Source: a virus (lineage: Duplodnaviria > Heunggongvirae > Uroviricota > Caudoviricetes). Taken from it: a stretch of 14,511 nucleotides of DNA. Positions within the stretch are counted from its first letter, which is position 1. Each line of letters starts with the position of its first letter. The position numbers were made by a program, and so were the translations under genes. The stretch lies in IMG/VR virus record IMGVR_UViG_3300029079_000067, one strand, 5' to 3'. The notes beneath the pieces were generated by a model, which had not been told where the DNA came from, made no database searches, and saw nothing but the letters and a program-made list of their open reading frames with translations. This document shows positions 1 to 14,511 of this stretch, piece by piece.

Positions 1-1209
1 ATGTCGGTTTTTCATAACTGGCTGCTTGATATCGCAAGCGGGAATTACTTTATCTACATCAAACGCCTTTCTGCAAACGACACAGGCGCAACAGGTGGCC
101 ATCAGGTCGGACTTTATATCCCCTCAAATATCGTTGAAAAGCTTTTTCCATCTATCAATCATACTCGCGAACTGAACCCTTCAGTCTTCCTTACTGCGCA
201 TGTATCATCCCATGATTGCCCTGATACCCAAGCACGCGCAATTTATTACAACAACCGTTATTTTGGTAAGACCCGAAACGAAAAAAGAATTACGCGCTGG
301 GGGAGAGGAAGTCCATTACAGAACCCTGAAAATACAGGAGCCCTCACAATTCTTGCTTTCAGGTTAAACGAACAGAACACTGACTGTTCCGAGGTAGATA
401 TATGGGTCTGCGTCAATCCCGATGAAGAGGATATCATCGAGTCTGCTATTGGCGAAATCATACCTGGAACCCTAATTTCCGGCCCTGCCGGACAAATTTT
501 GGGCGGATTGTCTCTTCAGCAAACTCCAGTAAATCATAAATATGTTATTCCTGAAGACTGGAAGAAGCGTTTTCCTTCTGGAAACGAAATTATTCAATAT
601 GCTGCTGGCCATTATGCTAAAAACTCCAAGGATCCAGATGAGCAACTGATTGACCGTCGGCGTGTCGAGTATGATATTTTTCTACTCGTCGAGGAATTAC
701 ATGTTCTTGATATTATTAAGAAAGGATTCGATTCTGTAGATGAGTTTATTGCATTAGCCAACTCTGTCAGTAATCGACGTAAATCAAGGGCAGGCAAATC
801 ACTTGAACTTCACCTAGAGAAGCTTTTTATCGAGCACGGACTACGGCATTTCTCCACTCAGGCAGTTACTGAAGGTAATAAAAAACCAGATTTCCTGTTT
901 CCTTCAGCAGAGGCATATCATAACGTTGAATTTCCTGTAGAAAACTTACGTATGCTGGCAGTAAAGACCACCTGCAAAGATCGCTGGCGTCAGATACTGA
1001 ATGAAGCAGATAAAATCCATCAGGTACATTTATTTACACTGCAAGAAGGTGTTTCTTCAGCACAATACCGAGAAATGAAAGATGCGGGTGTCAGACTCGT
1101 TGTACCATCAACTTTACATAAAAAATACCCAGAAGCAGTTAGAGAAGAATTAATAACGCTCGGAGCATTCATTACTGAGCTGATAGAGCTTTACGCTGAA
1201 CTATCATAG
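1..1209 (+). CDS. ecoRIIR: Type IIE restriction endonuclease, EcoRII-like (complete)
   Basis: 402-codon ORF from ATG at position 1 to TAG at 1207-1209. Translation (MSVFHNWLLDIASGNYF...RLSANDTGATGGHQVGLYIP...) matches, from memory, the EcoRII endonuclease along its length; no identity figure computed. Convergent with a cytosine-5 methyltransferase gene, as in EcoRII. Promoter lies outside the window. Confidence 0.88.
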   Translation: MSVFHNWLLDIASGNYFIYIKRLSANDTGATGGHQVGLYIPSNIVEKLFPSINHTRELNPSVFLTAHVSSHDCPDTQARAIYYNNRYFGKTRNEKRITRWGRGSPLQNPENTGALTILAFRLNEQNTDCSEVDIWVCVNPDEEDIIESAIGEIIPGTLISGPAGQILGGLSLQQTPVNHKYVIPEDWKKRFPSGNEIIQYAAGHYAKNSKDPDEQLIDRRRVEYDIFLLVEELHVLDIIKKGFDSVDEFIALANSVSNRRKSRAGKSLELHLEKLFIEHGLRHFSTQAVTEGNKKPDFLFPSAEAYHNVEFPVENLRMLAVKTTCKDRWRQILNEADKIHQVHLFTLQEGVSSAQYREMKDAGVRLVVPSTLHKKYPEAVREELITLGAFITELIELYAELS

Positions 1210-1214
1210 GCTGA

Positions 1215-1237
1215 CTCCCGGCTTAAAAGGCCGGGAG
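1215..1237. terminator. GC-rich hairpin between the convergent R and M genes (putative bidirectional terminator)
   Basis: ctcccggc (1215-1222) / ttaaaag loop / gccgggag (1230-1237): perfect 8-bp inverted repeat in the 34-bp gap between the two stop codons. No clear T-tract on either side, so terminator function is inferred. Confidence 0.35.
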
Positions 1238-1243
1238 ATGTTC

Positions 1244-2677
1244 TCAAGGCTGCCCAGTCTTACCAGCATCAGCAGAAACAGCTTTGAGGATATAGGGTTC
1301 CAGAAGTCTGGCAACAGCTTCAAATACTGGCACCACAACTGAGTTACCGAACTGCCGATATGACTGAGTATCTGAAACCGGAATACGGAATGGTTTCCCT
1401 CCAGGTTTTTCAAATCCCATAAGGCGTGCGCACTCTCGGGGAGTCAGCCTGCGTGGTCGACGAGCCTGATTACTCTCATTCATAAAGTCAGCCTCTCCCG
1501 TTGCCATATCCCAACCACGATCAATAAGAATTTCTGATCCGTCTTTGTGATATCTGGCAGAAAGTGTGCGTGCAATGCTTTCCTTATTCTCAGGATTGAC
1601 CAACCCAAAGCCAAAACCATTCCCCTTGGCTGCATGCTTTTTGGCGTAGTTATAAAGGTACTCCCATAGTTTTGGCGTAAGTATATATTTACTGTCGACT
1701 ACAGGCTCCAGCAATTCACCAAATGATGGGCGGTGTTCCGGATAAAAACGACTGATATCACGCAAGGTAAACCCCTTGTGAATATTCAGATCTCGTCTAA
1801 ATCCGACCAGAACAATGCGTTCACGATGCTGAGGCAAAAAATGCTTCCCATCGATAATCTTTGGATCGTTTTTTCCCATTTCTGCAGCATCGGCAACTTC
1901 GTAGCCCAGCTCGTCAAGGGTCTCCATAATGACTTTGAAAGTTTTACCCTTATCATGGCTCTTCAGATTTTTGACATTTTCCAGCACAAAAATTGCCGGT
2001 TTTTTTGCTCGTATAATACGTGCCACGTCAAAAAAAAGTGTTCCTTGTGCTTCACATTCAAAACCATGCGCACGACCAAGTGAGTTTTTCTTACTAACAC
2101 CAGCAAGGCTAAATGGCTGGCACGGGAACCCCGCAAGAAGCACATCATGATCCGGCACATGCTCATCAATATATGCATAAGCATCCGTTTCCAATACATC
2201 GGTTTTATCACTCAGCGTGACTTCCCGAATATCGAGATTGAATTTATGCACCTGTTCATCGTTAAACCAGTTGGCCTTGTATGTACGCACAGCATCTTTA
2301 TTCCATTCACTGGTAAAAACACACTGGCCTCCAATGGCCTCAAAACCTTTCCGTATCCCTCCAATTCCAGCAAATAAGTCAATGAAGCGGAAAGCATATT
2401 CCGGATGGTTTGCAGGTGGTTCTGGTAGCATCTTACGCAGAAGAGACTCTTCTACTGAAGTCAACGATTTTGGTAAACACTTGCCATTAATCCAGCGGTT
2501 AATGGTTTCACGGCTCCACTCATTTTTTCCGACTTTTCTCAGTAATTCAGCCACATACTTCTGATCATAGATTTCCAGCACTTTCTCGATAAGCTTTTTA
2601 TCATTTTCCTGTCGCAGCTTTTCTTCCGCCTCGGCTTCCTTCAGCAGATGCTGTGCCAACACTTCAAATTCAGACAT
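1244..2677 (-). CDS. ecoRIIM: DNA (cytosine-5)-methyltransferase, M.EcoRII/Dcm-like
   Basis: Minus-strand ORF 1244-2719. The internal ATG at 2677 has GGAGG 4 nt upstream (plus-strand cctcc at 2682-2686), so 2677 is the preferred start (477 aa); the track start at 2719 adds 14 codons. Canonical C5-MTase motifs present: FAGIGG (motif I), GFPCQPFS (motif IV, catalytic Cys), ENV (motif VI), QHRERIV (motif VIII), RQFGNSV (motif X). Confidence 0.9.
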
Positions 2678-3857
<1,180 letters not shown>

Positions 3858-3876
3858 GTCTTTAAGTGATAAGCAT

Positions 3877-3915
3877 AAACCGCAGCACGATCTTGCATAC
3901 GACGTGCTACGGTTT
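3877..3915. repeat. Imperfect 13-bp inverted repeat overlapping the pin stop codon (possible bidirectional terminator)
   Basis: aaaccgcagcacg (3877-3889) / 13-nt loop / cgtgctacggttt (3903-3915), one mismatch. Lies between the convergent GIY-YIG and pin genes. Flanking T-tracts are weak. Confidence 0.3.
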
Positions 3916-4469
3916 CATTTATCTCCGACCGAAAACTTCTTATACAGTGTCGATATACCAACATCATAGATGATCGCCACCTTCTGGCGAGGAACGCCTG
4001 ATGCAATTAATCGCCCGGCCTGCGCCCATTGTTCTGGTGTAAGTTTGGGACGACGTCCACCAATTCGTCCCTGTGCGCGAGCAGCTTCCAGTCCAGCTTT
4101 TGTTCGTTCAACAATCAGTTCACGCTCCATTTCAGCCAGGGCACCCATCACATGAAAGAAAAAGCGCCCCATTGGGGTACTGGTATCAATTGAATCCGTC
4201 AGACTACGAAAGTTGATGCCTCGTTCGCGCAACTCCTCCACCAGCACGACAAGATGCCGCATACTGCGCCCCAGTCGGTCCAGTTTCCAGACCACCAGCG
4301 TGTCACCTGCCGATAATGTCCTGAGCAGCTTTTTCAGTCCTGGTCTGTCGGACTTTGTACCGCTTATCTTGTCTTCAAAAATCAGCTCGCATCCTGCACA
4401 GTTCAGCGCATTACGTTGTAGATCTGTGTTCTGGTCATTTGTTGACACACGTACATAGCCAATAAGCAT
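3915..4469 (-). CDS. pin: Serine recombinase, DNA invertase of the Pin/Gin/Hin/Cin (Din) family
   Basis: ORF 3915-4505. The product from the internal ATG at 4469 (MLIGYVRVSTNDQNTDLQ..., 184 aa) matches from memory the e14 Pin invertase, with the catalytic Ser in the YVRVST motif and a C-terminal HTH (VAIIYDVGISTLYKK). The 12 extra N-terminal codons of the track ORF are probably not translated. Confidence 0.9.
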   Translation of the reverse strand: MLIGYVRVSTNDQNTDLQRNALNCAGCELIFEDKISGTKSDRPGLKKLLRTLSAGDTLVVWKLDRLGRSMRHLVVLVEELRERGINFRSLTDSIDTSTPMGRFFFHVMGALAEMERELIVERTKAGLEAARAQGRIGGRRPKLTPEQWAQAGRLIASGVPRQKVAIIYDVGISTLYKKFSVGDK

Positions 4470-4495
4470 GGTAGATCTCCCTGACAAAAGCAGGA

Positions 4496-5074
4496 ATGAT
4501 GCCATTTGCTCGTTATTTCTGCATTTTCATAAACGTTGGTTTGGGAGAAGGTTCGGCATTACCCGTTGGCGTGCCTGTTCCGTGGCCTTCCGCCACTCCG
4601 CCAACAGGCTGGCTGAAATGCAACGGTGCCGCTTTTTCTGCAGAAGAATACCCGGAACTGGCAAAGGCTTATCCGACAAATAAATTGCCTGATTTACGTG
4701 GTGAGTTTATTCGTGGCTGGGATGACGGGCGTGGAGTGGATGCGGGACGTGCCTTGCTAAGTCTTCAGGATGACTCTTTTGAAGCGCACAGGCATGAGTC
4801 CTTTTTTTACGCGGGTATTTCTCGCAATGAAATACCATTAAAAAATCTTCCAAGTTCAGACGAGATGCTGACTTTAAGTTCTACAACTAATGCCTTGTCC
4901 CCGGACGGTATTGATGCCACTAATTCGTTAATTGGTAATGATGATTACAACTGTCTGATTGAAGGAAATAAAAATAACAAACGAACAGCGACGGGGTTGA
5001 GTACCAGTATTGTCGGTGCAGCAGAGACACGCCCACGTAATATTTCATTTAATTACATTGTGAGGGCTGCATGA
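4496..5074 (+). CDS. Tail-fibre C-terminal variable cassette (Sv'-like), probably silent in this orientation
   Basis: Translation GVPVPWPSATPPTGWLKCNGAAFSAEEYPELAKAYP...LPDLRGEFIRGWDDGRGVDAGRALL is typical of the host-range C-terminal domain of Mu S / P1 S / e14 Stf tail fibres. It begins at the invertase crossover site and is transcribed away from pin, as in the G/P/C invertible segments. No constant-region N-terminal part lies upstream. Confidence 0.65.
   Translation: MMPFARYFCIFINVGLGEGSALPVGVPVPWPSATPPTGWLKCNGAAFSAEEYPELAKAYPTNKLPDLRGEFIRGWDDGRGVDAGRALLSLQDDSFEAHRHESFFYAGISRNEIPLKNLPSSDEMLTLSSTTNALSPDGIDATNSLIGNDDYNCLIEGNKNNKRTATGLSTSIVGAAETRPRNISFNYIVRAA
4524..4549. other. Candidate invertase crossover site (gix/pix-like 26-bp site)
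   Basis: ttttcataaacgttggtttgggagaa resembles the Gin gix consensus TTCCTGTAAACCGAGGTTTTGGATAA (17 of 26 positions by eye, conserved TAAAC...GGTTT...GGA.AA core). About 55 bp from the pin start and in frame with the tail-fibre cassette. Confidence 0.45.
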
Positions 5075-5298
5075 TGTATAACGCCATCTTGAATAGTAAA
5101 TTTATTGCCACAAAGGCAGGAGAGATTACCGTTTATAACTATGACAGTGAGACACGGGAGTATATTTCTGCATCAACTGAATATCTTGCTGTGGGTGTCG
5201 GTATCCCTGCATATTCCTGTTTAGATGCTCCTGGCACACATAAGGTTGGTTACCCGGAATGGTTTTGCCGACCACGTTGCCGATACACCAGGTCATGA
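5071..5298 (+). pseudogene. Tail-fibre assembly (Tfa/U-like) gene, N-terminal fragment only
   Basis: The first ~55 residues ([37 protein letters not shown]) follow the conserved Tfa N-terminal pattern (I.IYN....EFI......G.PA.S.D.AP). Similarity stops near 5260, where the sequence becomes the antisense of the terminase 3' end. ATGA overlap with the upstream cassette stop. Confidence 0.5.
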
Positions 5299-6832
5299 TG
5301 GGATTGCCGTCATGATGAAAGCGCCCCGATTCAATTGCCGCTTCCAGCTCTTTCATCGGGTCGGACATGTTGGTGTAGTTCTGAATGATGGTGATGGGAT
5401 TCAGGTCTTCATCAGCAAGGTCATGTGACAGCCCGGTCGCCCCGAAGGGGTCGATGGGTGACTCGCTGACCGGGCTGATTTTGTTCGCTGCTTTGGCCTC
5501 TTCGAGGATGTAGCGATAATCCACCTCTGCACCATCGGTAACGGTCAGGACGCCCATTTCCACCCATTTCTGAAAGCGTTCGGCTGTCCGGCGATCTTCA
5601 TTTTTCTCGACGCTGTACACCGTGTCATACGGTACCCAGAAACGCGGGGCCACACTGTAGTAATGCGTTTTACCGTCAATCTCGCGGGTATAAAGTCGCG
5701 CCATGCTGTTCATATCCAGCTTACGCGCCAGGTCAAAGGCCAGAATGCACGGCTGCCCCTCGAACTGCTCAAGGGTCAGTGATTTATCCTCGCAGCTCTG
5801 CCAGCTCACCAGGTTGAAATACGCCGAACGCGCCGACACCCAGATATTGAGGTGTTTTGTTTTAAAGACGTTTGCCAGACGGGCGTTATTTTTCGCACGC
5901 TGCTGCTGACTTAACAAAAATTCGCGATAAACCGACACGCCAATATTTGGATTGGCTTTTTCCAGCACCTGCGGGTCGGTCCAGTCGTCACCTTCATCAA
6001 CGGTATAGATGATCCCGAACAGTTCATCGTTGGGCACCGAGCCGTTGAGCATCTCGATGACTTCCCGCCGCTTGTCGTAGCACGGCCCCTCAATGTTGTA
6101 CCCGGCAGTAGTAATGGCCCACATCAGTGGCTGACGTCGCGCCCCCATCCCGGTAAGCATCGTGGTGTAAAGCGCATCGGTGGCGTGCTCGTGATATTCA
6201 TCCACCACCGCACAGTGGGGTGATGATCCATCACCGGGGTTACCGATCAGCGGTTCAAACCGCGCGCCATCCTCCGGACGGTTCATGTTTGAGGCGTTAA
6301 CCTCAATCCCGAACGCTTCCGTCAGCATGGGCGTGCGTTTACACATCAGTCGCGCCGGGCGAAAGACTTCCCACGCCTGTTTCTCTGTCGTGGCACCGGA
6401 ATACACTTCCGCGCCAAACTCGTTATCACAGGCAAAACAATACAGGGCGACACCGGCAGAGATTGCCGATTTGCCGTTCTTACGGGGGATTTCGGTATAC
6501 ACCTCCCGGAAGCGGCGCAGCCGGGAGCCTTTATTGACCCAGCCAAACGCACAGCAGATCACAAAGAGCTGCCACGGCTCCAGCGTGATGGGCATCCGTT
6601 TGAATGCCCACTCACCCTTGGTGTGCGGCAACAGCTGAATAAATTTGGCGGCCCGTTCAGCCAGGTCCTTGTCGAAGCGGTAACGAAACGACTTACTTTT
6701 TTCCGCCATCAGGTCATCAAGATGGCGCTGGCAGGCCTGAATCACAAACTGGCAGGCCACAATCTTTCCGCGAACGACATCCCGGGCATACTGATTGGCA
6801 GCATTTACGTTGGGGTAAGATTTCCGGCTCAT
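5126..6832 (-). CDS. Phage terminase large subunit (HK97/e14-like); extreme C-terminus replaced at a deletion junction
   Basis: 568-aa ORF with terminase-large-subunit character: N-terminal ATPase region (EIPRKNGKS Walker-A-like) and C-terminal nuclease region. The last ~45 codons (after ...CIGNVVGKT) read through the antisense of the Tfa fragment and do not look terminase-like. Start overlaps the upstream terS stop (ATGA). Confidence 0.85.
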
Positions 6833-9771: not shown

Positions 9772-10527
9772 ATGCACTTAGGTTTTCATTCTGAGGGCCA
9801 AGAACAATTTATGACTTTCAAACTTATTAAGCATACGATTAATGTTGTATGGATCTCTAACATCATTACTCCATTGATGTTTTCATCTGAATGGTTTAGA
9901 AGATACGATTTGCTAAGAGAGGAAGATATAGCAAATTCAAACACAACTTTTGATGGTGATTCAATAACAACAGATTACGGTTGGATTGAGATTACGTGCA
10001 TACCAACAAAAGTAGTATTTCAACTGAAAAAAACAGGGCTTGAAAATTCCTTGGCAGACTTAGTGTCATCAATATTTTCTATGTTTCCTCATTCTGAGAC
10101 ACAAGCTGTTGGAATAAACACCCTTTTTGATTATCATTTTAATAATGAAACCAACTGGAATCAGTTAGGAGATGCATTAGTCCCCAAAATTTATTGGCAA
10201 GAACACAATAAATCAGAAATACTTCAGGATGAAGTTGAATATCATTATGGGATGAGAAATTTAGTCATTGCAATAGAAAACTCTAACAAGGAAGATAAAT
10301 CAATTTACAAAGAGGCTATCAATGTCTCTTATGCTTCGTATAGAAAAGTTAGTCCAGATGTATTTGGTTTAAATGTTCAATACAATCACGATCTAGCTTT
10401 GAAAGATATTCGTGACGCTGTTGCATTCACTCAATTACTCCCAAATATAATTCAAAAACATATTTCCGCAGCAATTAAGAATGATATCCTCAGCCATGAA
10501 CAAATGTTTAAGCGGATTCTATCATGA
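9772..10527 (+). CDS. Hypothetical protein, first gene of the AT-rich island
   Basis: 251-aa ORF with AT-rich codon usage. No motif I can recognise. Alternative start at ATG 9811. Stop overlaps the next gene's start (ATGA at 10524-10527). Confidence 0.55.
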   Translation: MHLGFHSEGQEQFMTFKLIKHTINVVWISNIITPLMFSSEWFRRYDLLREEDIANSNTTFDGDSITTDYGWIEITCIPTKVVFQLKKTGLENSLADLVSSIFSMFPHSETQAVGINTLFDYHFNNETNWNQLGDALVPKIYWQEHNKSEILQDEVEYHYGMRNLVIAIENSNKEDKSIYKEAINVSYASYRKVSPDVFGLNVQYNHDLALKDIRDAVAFTQLLPNIIQKHISAAIKNDILSHEQMFKRILS

Positions 10528-11096
10528 ATATATTAACCTATCCTGAAAATTCTTCCAGCCTTAGTAATACACGTTGCGTAACAAAAAAAGAAAAAAACAT
10601 TGAAACATTTGTAAAGACCCACAACATAACTCTTTCCTGTATAATTAAGACAGGTTTTGAAAATTATTCTGAAACATTTGAACAGCAGCAAGAAACTTGC
10701 AGCACAAAATATTCAACAAATATAATTGAAATACCTACTCCGCAACCATTCCCATCTACACAAAAAGGAGTGAAAAATAGAACTCAGCATAAAAAACTCA
10801 AGGCAAGACTTAAAGAAAAAATAACCTTTCTTGAAAAGGCATTAGATACTTATGGTATAATTGACAAAATTGTCAATATGAAATCAAATAAAGAAATACA
10901 TGCTAGAGTATATGATATAAACTCTCATGAATTCATTGATGAGATAACGTTCTCTTCAGATGAATTTAGTAAAAGCGATCAACAAAAACTTGTCGAAAAC
11001 GCTATTTTTTATTGGTATGTTGGTATGGAAAAAACTTTATTTGGACAAGAAAAAAGAGTATCCGAATTTCGCCTAAGAAGAATTTTTAAACAATAA
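10524..11096 (+). CDS. Hypothetical protein, second gene of the AT-rich island
   Basis: 190-aa ORF, translationally coupled to the upstream gene. Lys/Arg-rich central stretch (KGVKNRTQHKKLKARLKEK). No recognisable catalytic motif. Confidence 0.55.
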   Translation: MNILTYPENSSSLSNTRCVTKKEKNIETFVKTHNITLSCIIKTGFENYSETFEQQQETCSTKYSTNIIEIPTPQPFPSTQKGVKNRTQHKKLKARLKEKITFLEKALDTYGIIDKIVNMKSNKEIHARVYDINSHEFIDEITFSSDEFSKSDQQKLVENAIFYWYVGMEKTLFGQEKRVSEFRLRRIFKQ

Positions 11097-11119
11097 TTAG
11101 AAATTACGCAATACGGTGA

Positions 11120-12211
11120 ATGCAGGTGCCTACTGTTCAAAACTCTATCTGTGAAACAATTGTTTTTGGTAAAGGTATTGGCGAATCAATTGCCGTTCGT
11201 CTTGGGTTAAATGAATGGATGATTATTGATTCCTGTTTAAATGATAATAAACGCCCCGCAGCATTAGATTATCTGAAAGAAAAAGGTGTTAATCCACAAG
11301 ATGAAGTAAAACTGATAGTCATTAGTCATTTTCACGATGATCATATTAAAGGGATAGCCGAAATTATTAATAGTTGCAAAAATGCAAAAGTTGTAATTAG
11401 CGCAGCATTGAACACATCTGAATTTAGAGGATATATTAATGCACTAAGTGTTAATGGTGAGGATATGGCAAAAACTAAAGAAATAAACAAGGTCATGTCT
11501 TTATTCTATGATTTGCACAAAAATGATCGTCTTGTCCATGCAAAAAAAGACTGCATACTATTCAAAAGCAGCGAGAATATTCAAGTACATTCGTTATCGC
11601 CTTCTGATATGGATATAACAAACTCTGATCTTGAATTCGCAAACTCTACAAAATTATCATCAAATTTTAGCGAAATAGCCATGTCTGCTAAATTAGTTAA
11701 TCCTAATCACTACTGCGTTGTAATCAGAATATGCTCTCCAACATCAGAAAATAATGAAGTATTATTAGGCGCAGATTTAGAAGTTAGTAAAAACACTGGA
11801 TGGAATTCCGTTTGCAATGCAATAAATCGTCCAGAACCAAACTTAGCAGGTATTTTCAAACTTCCACACCACGGTTCCCAAACAGGCTTTCATGAGGAAA
11901 CATGGAACAAGCTAATCAAAAAAGGCCCTATTTCGATTTTAACCACTTATGATAAATCATCACTACCACGGCAGGATATGATCGACCTCTACAAATCAAA
12001 ATCATCAGCATTATACTGTACATCGATGCCTAAAAGTGATAACGCTCAAGAAAAATCACCTGCGATTGCTGAAGCACGGAGCATATTAGCGAAGATGAAA
12101 AGTTCAGTTTCATTTTCAAATAATAACAATAAATTTGGAATAGTTGCTGTTAGTAATTGCTTAACGTCTAGTCCTAAGGTTGAAACACATTACGCTGCTG
12201 TTTGCTTATAA
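11120..12211 (+). CDS. Metallo-beta-lactamase-fold hydrolase (putative nuclease or phosphodiesterase), third gene of the island
   Basis: 363-aa ORF with the MBL signature HxHxDH (VISHFHDDHIKG), an upstream Asp strand (WMIIDSC), a later metal-ligand Asp (LGADLE) and a PHHGS motif (KLPHHGSQTG) as in ComEC-type MBL domains. About 90 extra C-terminal residues. GTG at 11126 is an alternative start with GGTGA 8 nt upstream. Confidence 0.75.
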   Translation: MQVPTVQNSICETIVFGKGIGESIAVRLGLNEWMIIDSCLNDNKRPAALDYLKEKGVNPQDEVKLIVISHFHDDHIKGIAEIINSCKNAKVVISAALNTSEFRGYINALSVNGEDMAKTKEINKVMSLFYDLHKNDRLVHAKKDCILFKSSENIQVHSLSPSDMDITNSDLEFANSTKLSSNFSEIAMSAKLVNPNHYCVVIRICSPTSENNEVLLGADLEVSKNTGWNSVCNAINRPEPNLAGIFKLPHHGSQTGFHEETWNKLIKKGPISILTTYDKSSLPRQDMIDLYKSKSSALYCTSMPKSDNAQEKSPAIAEARSILAKMKSSVSFSNNNNKFGIVAVSNCLTSSPKVETHYAAVCL

Positions 12212-12226: not shown

Positions 12227-12587
12227 ACATATTTAAAATACTAAATACGCCTTCCACAAATCCAATTGCGGCTTGCAATTCTTTTCTGACAGTCCCATCT
12301 GAACATTTCCTTTTCTTTGCAATGGTACGTATTGATACTCCTATAACAAAATGGGCAACGATAAGTTCATACTCTTCTGGTTTGTACTTTCTTAATCTAG
12401 CTACGCACCCATCGATCATGAGCCCCTCATCATCATCACACTGAATCCGGGACTTTTTGCCATGAGGTAAAAGCCCCTTGAAGCCTGCTGCTATCGGCTG
12501 CCAGTCCACGCCACTGTTATCTGCTGCAGCCCATGCTCCCCAGCGGTCCAATACTTCATACATATCACGCATCAACTTTCTCCACAA
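12225..12587 (-). CDS. Q-like late-gene regulator / antiterminator candidate with a sigma-70 region-4-like HTH
   Basis: 120-aa product. C-terminal ELIVAHFVIGVSIRTIAKKRKCSDGTVRKELQAAIGFV resembles a sigma-70 region-4 helix-turn-helix. It sits between nin-like genes and the lysis cassette, the Q position in lambdoid phages. Assignment is positional plus motif; family not verified. Confidence 0.45.
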   Translation of the reverse strand: MWRKLMRDMYEVLDRWGAWAAADNSGVDWQPIAAGFKGLLPHGKKSRIQCDDDEGLMIDGCVARLRKYKPEEYELIVAHFVIGVSIRTIAKKRKCSDGTVRKELQAAIGFVEGVFSILNM

Positions 12588-12589
12588 AA

Positions 12590-13573
12590 TCAGGCCAGCA
12601 CGCCAATTGCCAGCGCACGATCGATAAAACGAAATATCAGCTCCAGCTTCTCTTCAAATGCCACGGTATCCGCATGCAGCTCGTCGTGATGCTTTCTGCA
12701 CAAAGGCAACACAAAGAGGTCATGCGCTTTTGTACCCATCCCACCCTGACCGTAGCCTATCAGGTGGTGGGGATCATCAGCAGGCTTTCCACAACATGCA
12801 CACGGCTGTGTCTTAACCCAGCGCGTGTACTTTTCATTAACCCAGCGGCGACGTTTTGGGCGTAACATAAAAGACTCCGGCGACTCCGGATCCACTTTCA
12901 GCGCCAGCACCTTTTTCGCCTTATCCTGGATGATGCTGGTGGCAGGAACCGAAGGCACAAGGTCACTTTCCCGGGTAACAGACGGCACAACAGGCTTCGG
13001 TAATCTCAGTGCCTTACGGGCTGCACTTTCCGGTAAGGCATCCGCCAGATCATTACGAATCAGCCACCAGCACAGTTCCGGCATTGTCACAACGTGACTG
13101 TCATCAAAACCGAGATCCCGACGCACAACAGACAACACCCAGCGGGCACAGTTATCCGTTGCCATTGATTCCAGCCGTTCCGTGAACTGATCGCGCAGCT
13201 GGTTATCGCAGTGCCAGCACAGACGGATTGCGCCCGGCGTGTGTCGCATTGTGGTCATGTTCTCGCTGTGCCAGTCGGAATGAGGCCACTGGCAACCTTT
13301 TTCACGAAGTAACCAGCGTTCAAGACATTCCACTCCACCAGCACGACGGATCACTGCCTCATTGCGGAACACGGCCCGAACGGCAGGATCATCCGCCAGC
13401 GGTTGTGATGCCGCCGGAACGGCACCACTGGCGAAAGATGAATAACGCTCCGGCTCAGGCTCCAGCAGGACACGCCCCTGCATAAACAGGGGCATCAGCT
13501 CTGAACCTGGCCTGAACAATACGATCCCCATACGCGGGGCAATTTCAGGGGTCAGTAGTGCTCTCACGGTCAC
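12590..13573 (-). CDS. Phage nin-region protein with a C-terminal HNH/zinc-finger-like motif (DUF968-like)
   Basis: 327-aa ORF. C-terminus has CACCGKPADDPHHLIGYGQGGMGTKAHDLFVLPLCRKHHDELH (Cys pairs and His-His as in HNH-type nucleases). Track start is a GTG at 13573, one nt after the upstream gene's stop; the first ATG is 14 codons in. Confidence 0.6.
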   Translation of the reverse strand: MTVRALLTPEIAPRMGIVLFRPGSELMPLFMQGRVLLEPEPERYSSFASGAVPAASQPLADDPAVRAVFRNEAVIRRAGGVECLERWLLREKGCQWPHSDWHSENMTTMRHTPGAIRLCWHCDNQLRDQFTERLESMATDNCARWVLSVVRRDLGFDDSHVVTMPELCWWLIRNDLADALPESAARKALRLPKPVVPSVTRESDLVPSVPATSIIQDKAKKVLALKVDPESPESFMLRPKRRRWVNEKYTRWVKTQPCACCGKPADDPHHLIGYGQGGMGTKAHDLFVLPLCRKHHDELHADTVAFEEKLELIFRFIDRALAIGVLA

Positions 13574-13574
13574 C

Positions 13575-14372
13575 TCAATGAACGGTATCGAGCAGCTTTA
13601 ACAGCTCAGGGAATCGGGATTCGAAGAAATGCGGCTGCGTCTCGCGCGGATTTGCGGGACTGGTGATGTTCTTGCCGAACATGCAGCCTTTCGCTGTCAG
13701 CGACCAGAATTTTTTGATGTTGTTAATCGCGGTACGACTGTATCGTTCGCGTTGTTCAACGATCCCCAGCTTCGCCATCTGGTGATATGCCTGATTAGCC
13801 GTCAGGCGGATACCATACTGTTTCAGCAGTGCACTCAGTGACAGTGTCGGGCGACTTGAGCCATCGTGTGCATCAGCAGGAGCATCAATGGCATAGCGCG
13901 GTGCCAGATTCGGTAAGCCAACAGCCTCCTGGAGTTTCTGACAGGCACCAAGCACAGATGAGTTAGACAGGTTTAACTCCCGACGCATAAAGTCCAGCAG
14001 AATCACACCAGCCTGCATCTTGTCAGCAGCCTGTCCGGATAATTTTTCCGGTGCGCTGGTTACCATGTCGAAAGTACGGATCACCTTCAGATGGAATGAC
14101 GGGCTGATCCACATTGCATAGGCATACACCAGTTCTTTGCAGACATACGTCCCCTGGTTATTTCCGCCACGAATAACGTTAACTGGCTCTATATTGACCG
14201 AGTTGCAAATCTGCAACTCGCTTATTAAATGCTCAGTTTGCTCATTGCGGAGCCAGAATGCAGGCTTATGCTTATCCAGAGAACCAGCAGCCCTGTGCAG
14301 ATCGTTCAGGCTGTAACGCCCATAAGCATCACGACGAACTTCAATACCATCAATAACCATCAGATTATTCAT
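13575..14372 (-). CDS. KilA-N domain protein (antirepressor / Roi-like)
   Basis: 265-aa product. N-terminal VIDGIEVRRDAYGRYSLNDLHRAAG...KPAFWLRNEQTEHLISEL...VIRGGNNQGTYVCKELVYAYAMWISPSFHLKVIRTF is a typical KilA-N/Bro-N-type DNA-binding domain. AGGAG lies 7 nt upstream of the ATG at 14372. Confidence 0.75.
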   Translation of the reverse strand: MNNLMVIDGIEVRRDAYGRYSLNDLHRAAGSLDKHKPAFWLRNEQTEHLISELQICNSVNIEPVNVIRGGNNQGTYVCKELVYAYAMWISPSFHLKVIRTFDMVTSAPEKLSGQAADKMQAGVILLDFMRRELNLSNSSVLGACQKLQEAVGLPNLAPRYAIDAPADAHDGSSRPTLSLSALLKQYGIRLTANQAYHQMAKLGIVEQRERYSRTAINNIKKFWSLTAKGCMFGKNITSPANPRETQPHFFESRFPELLKLLDTVH

Positions 14373-14391
14373 ACTTCGTTTCTCCTCTTAA

Positions 14392-14511
14392 TCAGGCGGC
14401 TGCACCCGCCGTTTTCTCGTACTTACTGATAGTGATCTCGACCTTCCCTTCCGGGATAACCGGTCCCCACTCCACCAGCATTCTTTTCACCTGACTGTCG
14501 TCTTCCCACAC
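14392..14511 (-). CDS. Partial CDS (C-terminal 39 codons), unknown product, continues beyond the right edge
   Basis: Open minus-strand frame from the window edge to TGA at 14392-14394 (...VWEDDSQVKRMLVEWGPVIPEGKVEITISKYEKTAGAAA*), directly upstream of the KilA-N gene's ribosome-binding site. Too short to assign. Confidence 0.3.
   Translation of the reverse strand: MWEDDSQVKRMLVEWGPVIPEGKVEITISKYEKTAGAAA

What the first reader, a model, noticed from the sequence alone, without database searches (positions are those of the whole stretch)
3915..5074. Pin invertase retained with a single crossover site and a silent tail-fibre cassette: likely an inactive inversion switch
Only one gix/pix-like site (4524-4549) is recognisable, at the start of the variable cassette. 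The partner site and the constant tail-fibre region should lie beyond the deletion junction and are not in this window. With one site, Pin cannot invert the segment, yet the pin gene looks intact, which raises the question of whether it has been kept for another role or uses a distant site.
Basis: partly seen in the sequence, partly recalled or inferred. Interest (0 to 1): 0.45.

Follow-up and report, generated by a model that had tools for sequence, protein, structure and literature searches.

The report
Broken e14-type Pin tail-fibre switch
This is the leftover end of a well-known phage tail-fibre flipping switch in an E. coli prophage: a recent 16-kb deletion removed one of its two recombination sites, so the intact-looking Pin enzyme has nothing left to flip, which is ordinary prophage decay.

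Summary
The window holds an intact pin gene (3915-4469, minus strand). It holds exactly one 26-bp crossover site (4524-4549), identical to the pin-proximal site of the E. coli K-12 e14 P-inversion system. An stfE-type tail-fibre cassette follows (4550-5074), then the first 59 codons of tfaE. At 5249-5252 a deletion with 4-bp microhomology (GTTA) joins tfaE to a truncated large-terminase gene.

Intact relatives carry about 16 kb here, one of them at the same thrW locus. That stretch includes the constant tail-fibre part and the inverted partner site.

No second site was found in the window, in 44 kb of context, or on the chromosome or the sequenced plasmid stretches of the nearest complete genome (DP051).

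The "kept for another role" idea is not needed. Two assemblies with the intact switch are 100% identical to the window over all 5,252 bases up to the junction, so the deletion is too young for pin to have decayed.

Verdict: a locked, inactive remnant of a known Fis-dependent (Din-family) inversion system. Low interest, already known in kind.

The parts
3915..4469 (-). pin: an e14-type Din-family serine DNA invertase, 184 aa, apparently intact.
   Evidence: Pfam Resolvase plus HTH_7. About 78% identical to Gin 3UJ3 over residues 1-179. 177/184 identical to K-12 PinE. RefSeq annotates pinE at these coordinates in DP051. The same protein sequence occurs next to both intact and deleted switches.
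4385..4447 (.). Candidate Fis-dependent recombinational enhancer inside the 5' end of pin. It consists of two matches to a degenerate Fis consensus, at 4433-4447 and 4385-4399, 48 bp apart. The proximal one lies about 97 bp from the centre of the crossover site. This part is inferred, not shown.
   Evidence: Motif scan. Both matches are conserved in K-12 pinE. A 48-bp pair in this position arose in 0.17% of 20,000 shuffles. [quoted passage not shown]
4524..4549 (.). The single surviving 26-bp crossover (pix) site, pin-proximal type, with central dinucleotide TT/AA. The inner half GGTTTGGGAGAA encodes ..GLGE.. at the start of the cassette.
   Evidence: Unique in the window, 0 of 200 shuffles. 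Identical to the e14 K-12 site at L027 6606-6631 and to the pin-proximal site of all intact relatives.
4499..5074 (+). stfE-type ORF. The variable tail-fibre tip cassette proper is 4550-5074 (Collar domain, receptor-binding end). It is preceded by a short leader that reads through the crossover site. It lacks the constant N-terminal part, so it is locked in the unexpressed or 'StfE' state.
   Evidence: Pfam Collar 1.7e-15. Matches T4 gp37 and gp12 tips in the PDB. 57% identical to K-12 StfE. The same cassette fused to the constant part occurs in 561 of 5,426 complete genomes.
5071..5252 (+). 5' fragment of tfaE (tail-fibre assembly chaperone), about 59 of 200 codons, cut by the deletion.
   Evidence: RefSeq marks it 'incomplete, missing C-terminus' in DP051. 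The alignment to intact tfaE ends at 5252.
5249..5252 (.). Deletion junction with 4-bp microhomology GTTA. About 16.0 kb is missing relative to the intact M37H prophage. The missing stretch holds the rest of tfaE, the second tfa, the tail-fibre gene with the partner crossover site, the baseplate, tail, head and portal genes, and the 3' end of terL.
   Evidence: blastn of the window against M37H. Junction alignments. Each half matches other genomes at 100% up to 5252 and from 5249. The junction itself is present in 1 of 5,426 complete genomes, but its chimeric ORF is on 42 contigs of the larger collection.
5249..6832 (-). Truncated large terminase gene: codons 1-528 of 577. The open frame runs on through antisense tfaE sequence to a stop at 5126, giving a chimeric 568-aa ORF.
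   Evidence: Pfam TerL_ATPase plus TerL_nuclease. RefSeq marks it 'missing C-terminus'. The full-length 577-aa gene in M37H is at L005 16096-17829.

Best explanation
The region is the right-hand end of an e14-like prophage with a Mu-type contractile tail, integrated at thrW. It has lost about 16 kb of morphogenesis genes through one illegitimate deletion at a 4-bp microhomology.

In the intact phage, Pin and host Fis bring together two inverted 26-bp sites and an enhancer located in the 5' end of pin. Pin then flips a ~1.8-2 kb segment. This swaps which of two tail-fibre tips, each with its own chaperone, is fused to the constant N-terminal part.

The deletion removed the constant part, its site, one tip and both complete chaperone genes. 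What remains is pin, the candidate enhancer, one site and one tip. One site cannot synapse with a partner, so the switch is locked and functionless, and the phage cannot build particles in any case.

pin is intact only because the deletion is very recent. It also lies next to defence genes (a PD-T4-3 nuclease and an EcoRII-type restriction-modification system) that may favour keeping this end of the prophage.

Shown: the anatomy, the deletion, the absence of a partner site, and the youth of the deletion. Inferred: the requirement for two sites and for Fis (from Hin and Gin biochemistry), the position of the enhancer, and any selective value of the neighbouring genes.
For: - The site is identical to the pin-proximal site of e14, and e14 has the partner site 1.8 kb away.
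- All intact relatives have both sites in inverted orientation sharing the inner half GGTTTGGGAGAA.
- The window is colinear with the intact M37H prophage except for a 16,001-bp gap between tfaE and terL.
- LR-06 carries the complete module at the same chromosomal locus, between paoD and thrW.
- The junction shows the 4-bp overlap GTTA and lies 700 bp from the pix site, so it was not made by Pin.
- L018 and L019, which have intact switches, are 100% identical to the window over 1-5252. Six deletion-carrying loci are identical or differ by 1 base over 9 kb.
- The same Pin protein is found next to both forms. The deletion marker is on 42 contigs and this Pin allele is on 169.
- The DP051 chromosome has one place for pin plus site by sensitive blastn. 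It has only two places for a query made of the junction plus both site types, which are the junction and its own site.
- No site was found on the 190 kb of DP051 plasmid sequence scanned.
- The joint between the constant part and this cassette exists in 561 complete genomes, so the cassette is a genuine alternative tip.
- Hin needs two sites plus an enhancer (PMC3798978).
- The prophage integrase in DP051 is frameshifted.
Against: - Activity was not measured, and no reads were available to test for inversion or other rearrangements.
- The window is not exactly DP051: it is identical to 12,648 and diverges after that. The genome-wide site search was therefore done on a proxy.
- BLAST at E<=10 sees only near-perfect sites, roughly 21 or more contiguous matches or 26 bp with at most 2 mismatches. 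Divergent gix-, cix- or hix-like sites would be missed.
- About 20 kb of plasmid pDP051-3, and any further plasmids, were not scanned.
- The deleted form occurs in at least three flanking contexts. It has therefore persisted long enough to spread or be rearranged, although without substitutions.
Confidence: 0.9

Rival explanations
1. Pin is retained because it works in trans on crossover sites elsewhere, such as another prophage's P-, G-, C- or H-like segment, a plasmid such as p15B or P1, or an incoming phage. The local site would then be irrelevant.
For: Din invertases cross-react. PMC12529663 reports that PinQ and PinR from Qin and Rac invert the e14 P segment in trans, that PinE inverts the Salmonella H segment and the Mu G segment, and that Fin of Fels-2 inverts the H segment. 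Pin here is intact, with the catalytic residues present and a candidate enhancer.
Against: The nearest complete genome has no other pin/gin/cin/hin-like gene on its chromosome. It has no other close copy of either site type on the chromosome or on the plasmid sequence scanned. An enhancer normally has to be in cis with the two sites. The intactness of pin is fully explained by the youth of the deletion.
Confidence: 0.05
2. The surviving stfE-type ORF (4499-5074) is expressed from its own start and has a host function such as blocking phage receptors. The locus would then be a fixed 'on' or 'off' state of a defence switch like the one proposed for e14.
For: PMC12529663 claims that a chimera starting at the K-12 stfE start (StfE2, formed after inversion) blocks T2 adsorption. 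The window ORF has the same leader: MPFARYFCIFINVGLGE here against MPFACYFFIFINVGLGE in K-12.
Against: In that paper the active protein is the chimera made after inversion, with an stfP-derived end. That chimera cannot form here because the stfP part is deleted. No sigma-70-like promoter was found upstream of the ORF. K-12 stfE is annotated as a pseudogene. No expression data exist.
Confidence: 0.03
3. The single-site layout is an assembly artefact, for example a collapse across a repeat, and the real genome has the full switch.
For: Invertible segments with inverted repeats can confuse short-read assemblers.
Against: The junction joins tfaE to terL, two unrelated sequences about 16 kb apart, at a 4-bp overlap and not at a repeat. 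It is present in a finished chromosome (DP051). It is also present in independent NCBI and ENA assemblies, 42 contigs in all.
Confidence: 0.01

Closest known systems
P-inversion system of cryptic prophage e14, E. coli K-12 (stfP-tfaP-tfaE-stfE-pinE)
   Same: Pin is 96% identical. The pin-proximal 26-bp site is identical. The order of pin, site, stfE-type cassette and tfaE is the same. The ymfQ and Mu-like baseplate genes lie upstream in intact relatives. A defence gene sits beyond pin: mcrA in e14 and PD-T4-3 here.
   Different: e14 keeps both sites and both cassettes and still inverts (PMC12529663). Here the stfP side, the partner site and both complete tfa genes are deleted. The cassette tip is a different allele, 57% identical to StfE. 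The prophage sits at thrW rather than icd.
Hin, Gin and Cin Fis-dependent DNA invertase systems (Din family)
   Same: A small serine recombinase about 78% identical to Gin. A 26-bp imperfect palindromic site of the ..AAACC NN GGTTT.. type. A candidate two-site Fis enhancer in the 5' end of the invertase gene, ~100 bp from the proximal site. For Gin and Cin, the switch also controls alternative tail-fibre tips.
   Different: A working system needs two inverted sites in cis, as in the title of Johnson & Simon 1985, cited in PMC3798978. Only one is present here.
Qin and Rac cryptic prophages of K-12 (pinQ-tfaQ-stfQ'-nohA and stfR-tfaR-pinR)
   Same: These are also prophage remnants in which a pin-named serine recombinase survives beside tail-fibre genes. 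In Qin a truncated stf gene abuts a terminase-subunit fragment. This is the same kind of internal deletion, from packaging genes to tail fibre.
   Different: PinQ and PinR are only 38% identical to this Pin and have no e14-type site next to them. They are reported to act in trans on e14 (PMC12529663). No such target was found for the Pin studied here.

Membership tests
Din-family (Hin/Gin/Cin/Pin) DNA inversion system | A small serine recombinase with an N-terminal catalytic domain (active-site Ser near residue 9-10) and a C-terminal helix-turn-helix domain. | tested here: met
   Resolvase 1.6e-51 plus HTH_7 8.6e-13. S9, R7, D64, R65 and R68 are present. Full-length alignment to Gin 3UJ3.
Din-family (Hin/Gin/Cin/Pin) DNA inversion system | Close sequence relationship to a characterised invertase. 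| tested here: met
   177/184 identical to K-12 PinE. E=4.4e-94 to Gin.
Din-family (Hin/Gin/Cin/Pin) DNA inversion system | Two 26-bp crossover sites in inverted orientation on the same DNA, flanking the invertible segment. | tested here: not met
   There is one site only, at 4524-4549. The partner type is absent from the window, from 44 kb of DP051 context, from the DP051 chromosome at BLAST sensitivity and from the plasmid sequence scanned. Intact relatives have it.
Din-family (Hin/Gin/Cin/Pin) DNA inversion system | A recombinational enhancer with two Fis sites 48 bp apart, in cis and about 100 bp from the proximal site, inside the invertase gene. | tested here: inconclusive
   Two degenerate-consensus matches with the right spacing and distance are conserved in pinE and rare in shuffles (0.17%). 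Fis binding was not tested, and the consensus is loose.
Din-family (Hin/Gin/Cin/Pin) DNA inversion system | Observed inversion, meaning both orientations in a population. | not testable with these tools
   No reads were available. Across genomes, this cassette is found both beside pin and fused to the constant part (561 genomes), but only where the switch is complete.
Phage tail-fibre host-range switch (e14 P, Mu G, P1 C type) | A constant tail-fibre N-terminal part with its promoter outside the segment, and two opposed variable tips, each with its own assembly chaperone, inside it. | tested here: not met
   Only one tip (4550-5074) and 59 codons of one chaperone remain. The constant part, the second tip and the second chaperone lie in the 16-kb deletion.

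The most novel reading that the evidence does not exclude
In the lineage carrying this deletion, the orphaned Pin, with its enhancer and single site, might be kept as a trans-acting recombinase for segments brought in by other prophages, plasmids or infecting phages. This would resemble the trans action reported for PinQ and PinR on e14. Alternatively, the locked stfE-type ORF might be an expressed surface or anti-adsorption factor. Neither reading is excluded, because no expression or read data were available and only a proxy genome could be searched.
Probability: 0.06. Interest if true: 0.4.

Novelty: already known. Interest (0 to 1): 0.1.

Why it matters
It matters little beyond annotation.

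- It shows how a phase-variable tail-fibre switch is disabled by prophage decay. An intact invertase gene next to one site should not be read as an active switch, or as evidence of selection, unless the age of the deletion is known.
- For genome annotation, the 'phage tail protein' at 4499-5074 is an orphan cassette, and the 568-aa 'terminase' is a chimeric read-through ORF.
- The e14-type sites given here (TTCTCCCAAACCAACGTTTATGAAAA and CTCTCGAAAACCTTGGTTTGGGAGAA) can be used to score such switches as complete or broken across E. coli genomes.

Tried and rejected
- **Partner site with few mismatches.** I searched for it with up to 3 mismatches to the pin-proximal site in intact relatives and found none. 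The two sites differ in their outer halves. The partner was then found as an inverted repeat and through the shared inner half.
- **"Private to one strain".** I first read the deletion as private to one strain because only 1 of 5,426 complete genomes has the junction. I revised this: the chimeric ORF is on 42 contigs in the larger collection.
- **Window source.** I assumed the window came from DP051. It is identical only up to 12,648 and diverges after that.
- **Qin and Rac as 'orphan Din invertase' precedents.** PinQ and PinR are only 38% identical to this Pin. The absence of e14-type sites next to them says little about their own sites, so I kept them as a layout analogy only.
- **Pin-made deletion.** I considered that Pin made the deletion by recombining with a pseudo-site. 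I rejected this because the junction is 700 bp from the site and shows only a GTTA overlap.
- **Promoter and terminator scan of 3800-5400.** It gave nothing useful: one sub-chance hit inside pin.
- **NCBIfam.** It gave no specific name for Pin, the cassette or the GIY-YIG protein.
- **Plasmid EcoRII system.** I first took the EcoRII-type system on plasmid pDP051-1 to be a near-identical copy of the one in the window. It is only 80% identical.

Full report
**What is in the window**

The finding spans 3915-5074. On the minus strand there is a serine-recombinase gene. The mechanical ORF is 3915-4505. The alignment to Mu Gin starts at the Met encoded at 4469, and RefSeq annotates a 184-aa pinE at the matching coordinates of the nearest genome. 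I therefore take 3915-4469 as the gene.

Pfam finds the Resolvase catalytic domain (1.6e-51) and the HTH_7 DNA-binding domain (8.6e-13). The protein is about 78% identical to Gin over residues 1-179 and 177/184 identical to PinE of K-12 e14. R7, S9, D64, R65 and R68, which match the catalytic set of the resolvase/invertase family, are all present. The claim that pin looks intact holds.

**The crossover site**

Positions 4524-4549 read TTTTCATAAACGTTGGTTTGGGAGAA. This sequence occurs once in the window and in none of 200 shuffles. It is base-for-base the pin-proximal site of the e14 P segment in K-12 (L027 6606-6631).

A degenerate Din palindrome with up to 3 mismatches gave only two more hits. 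Both had 3 mismatches, which is chance level: 3 found against 1.07 expected.

**The cassette and the junction**

From 4550 to 5074 the plus strand encodes a Collar-domain tail-fibre tip. It resembles the T4 gp37 and gp12 tips and is 57% identical to K-12 StfE, with the first ~80 residues almost identical. The annotated ORF (4499-5074) starts upstream of the site and reads through it, exactly as in stfE.

Next come about 59 codons of tfaE. At 5249-5252 the sequence then switches to the antisense of a large-terminase gene. Compared with an exact parent (L018) on the left and with 100%-matching terminase genes on the right, the two homologies overlap by four bases, GTTA.

The terminase keeps codons 1-528 of 577. 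It reads on for 40 unrelated codons to a stop at 5126, giving the chimeric 568-aa ORF listed.

**What is missing**

The M37H prophage at ssrA is colinear with the window. It has the EcoRII-type restriction-modification system, the GIY-YIG gene, pinE, the same cassette and a full tfaE. It then continues with a second tfa, a 216-aa tail-fibre gene, ymfQ, a Mu-like baseplate, tape measure, tube, sheath, head genes, portal and a full terL. The gap in the window corresponds to 16,001 bp of M37H.

LR-06 has the full module at the same chromosomal place as the window's nearest genome, between paoD and thrW.

In M37H, LR-06, L016, L018, L019 and e14 a second site, CTCTCGAAAACCTTGGTTTGGGAGAA, lies inside the tail-fibre gene. 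It is inverted relative to the first and shares the inner half GGTTTGGGAGAA. It encodes ..ENLGLGE.., where the constant part ends.

Joining the constant part of L018 to the window's cassette at the site gives an uninterrupted 275-aa tail fibre. That joint exists as contiguous DNA in 561 of 5,426 complete E. coli genomes, two of them at 100% identity. The cassette is therefore a genuine alternative tip, and the switch is seen in both states in nature, but only where it is complete.

**Is there a second site anywhere?**

- It is not in the window.
- It is not in 44 kb around the locus in DP051.
- For the whole DP051 chromosome, sensitive blastn with pin plus site gave a single place.
- A composite query made of the strain-specific junction and both site types gave two places, the junction and the known site. 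Other genomes have a median of three and up to sixteen places.
- About 190 kb of DP051 plasmid sequence (IncN, ColV-type and part of an IncF plasmid) has no site. The one exception is a 4-mismatch match just upstream of the IncN resolvase gene, which is probably its own res site.

Limits on this search:
- The window is not exactly DP051. It is identical to 12,648 and then diverges.
- BLAST at E<=10 sees only near-perfect sites.
- About 20 kb of one plasmid was not scanned.

**Why pin is intact**

The chimeric terminase ORF that marks the deletion is on 42 contigs, and this exact Pin protein is on 169 contigs. Pin is found beside both the deleted and the intact arrangement.

Two intact loci (L018, L019) are 100% identical to the window across all 5,252 bases up to the junction. 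Six deletion carriers are identical to it, or differ by one base, over 9 kb. No substitution separates the broken switch from its working parent, so an unselected pin has had no time to decay. The question of whether it was kept for another role does not arise from these data.

The deleted form does occur with three different left flanks, so it has spread or been rearranged. It has done so without point changes.

**Mechanism**

Established biochemistry of Hin and Gin requires two recombinase dimers on two inverted sites plus a Fis-bound enhancer in cis. The enhancer natively lies ~100 bp from the proximal site, inside the invertase gene (PMC3798978).

In pin, two matches to a loose Fis consensus lie at nt 23-37 and 71-85. 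They are 48 bp apart, and the proximal one is about 97 bp from the centre of the site. Both are conserved in K-12 pinE, and such a pair in that position arose in 0.17% of shuffles. This is a plausible enhancer but it is unproven.

With one site, no synapse and no inversion are possible. The junction is 700 bp from the site and shows only microhomology, so Pin did not cause the deletion.

**Comparison with the literature**

The e14 P segment is the direct homologue. A 2025 paper reports several relevant things (PMC12529663):
- PinQ and PinR, from other cryptic prophages, invert the e14 segment in trans.
- PinE does so too.
- The post-inversion chimera StfE2 blocks T2 adsorption.
- PinE can invert the Salmonella H and Mu G segments.

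A distant target for an orphan Pin is therefore a legitimate idea, but no target was found here. The StfE2-type chimera also cannot form, because the stfP side is gone.

K-12 Qin (pinQ-tfaQ-stfQ'-nohA) has a similar packaging-to-tail-fibre deletion, but PinQ is only 38% identical to this Pin.

**Verdict**

This is a recently broken, locked remnant of a known Din-family tail-fibre switch. It is ordinary prophage decay, already known in kind and of low interest.

Noticed in passing
window 3084-3857 (+): The gene just beyond pin, annotated as a LEM-3-like GIY-YIG protein, matches the anti-phage defence protein PD-T4-3 over its full length (PADLOC, E=4.7e-140). It occupies the slot where e14 carries mcrA.
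   Followed up: partly
window 1-2719: An EcoRII-type restriction endonuclease (EcoRII-N and EcoRII-C domains) and a Dcm-like methyltransferase lie at the outer end of the prophage. The same pair is in the M37H prophage at ssrA. DP051 also carries a second EcoRII-type pair, 80% identical, on its IncN plasmid (L007 9532-12289).
   Followed up: partly
window 9772-12211 (+): A three-gene cargo lies between the holin and the Q antiterminator: two hypothetical proteins and a 363-aa MBL-fold hydrolase with weak PADLOC hits (DRT-associated MBL 2.2e-11, LmuA 5.7e-07). The same slot holds Kiwa in M37H and a KAP NTPase in LH10-b-1. It looks like a defence-gene hotspot holding an uncharacterised candidate.
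   Followed up: partly
window 12649-14511: The window is identical to DP051 up to 12,648 and then diverges, with 68 mismatches and 8 gaps in all. It differs from the L013 and L014 contigs by a single indel. The window therefore comes from another member of the lineage, with a mosaic Q/DUF968 region.
   Followed up: partly
L014 (GCA_051593365.1) against window 2886; L017 against L015: The same deleted prophage occurs with different left flanks. In L014 the EcoRII system is replaced, from window position 2886 outward, by an integrase plus a YdfE-like gene. In L017 a 404-aa integrase island lies beyond the restriction-modification system instead of the LysR'/paoD genes. Intact forms show the same two flank variants.
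   Followed up: no
L007 (pDP051-1) 12402-12427: The Din-like palindrome GTATCAAAAACGATGGTTTCTGTGAC (4 mismatches out of 18 consensus positions) lies 107 bp upstream of the IncN plasmid's serine recombinase gene. It is probably that resolvase's own site. About 1.3 such hits are expected by chance in the sequence scanned.
   Followed up: no
L001 39628-40745 (DP051, beyond the window): The prophage's tyrosine integrase next to tRNA-Thr (thrW) is frameshifted. The element is therefore also unable to excise by its own integrase.
   Followed up: no
L006 (LR-06) 23077-23774: In LR-06 an IS1 element sits inside the otherwise complete invertible segment, between the second tfa and the tail-fibre gene. 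This is another way the switch gets damaged.
   Followed up: no
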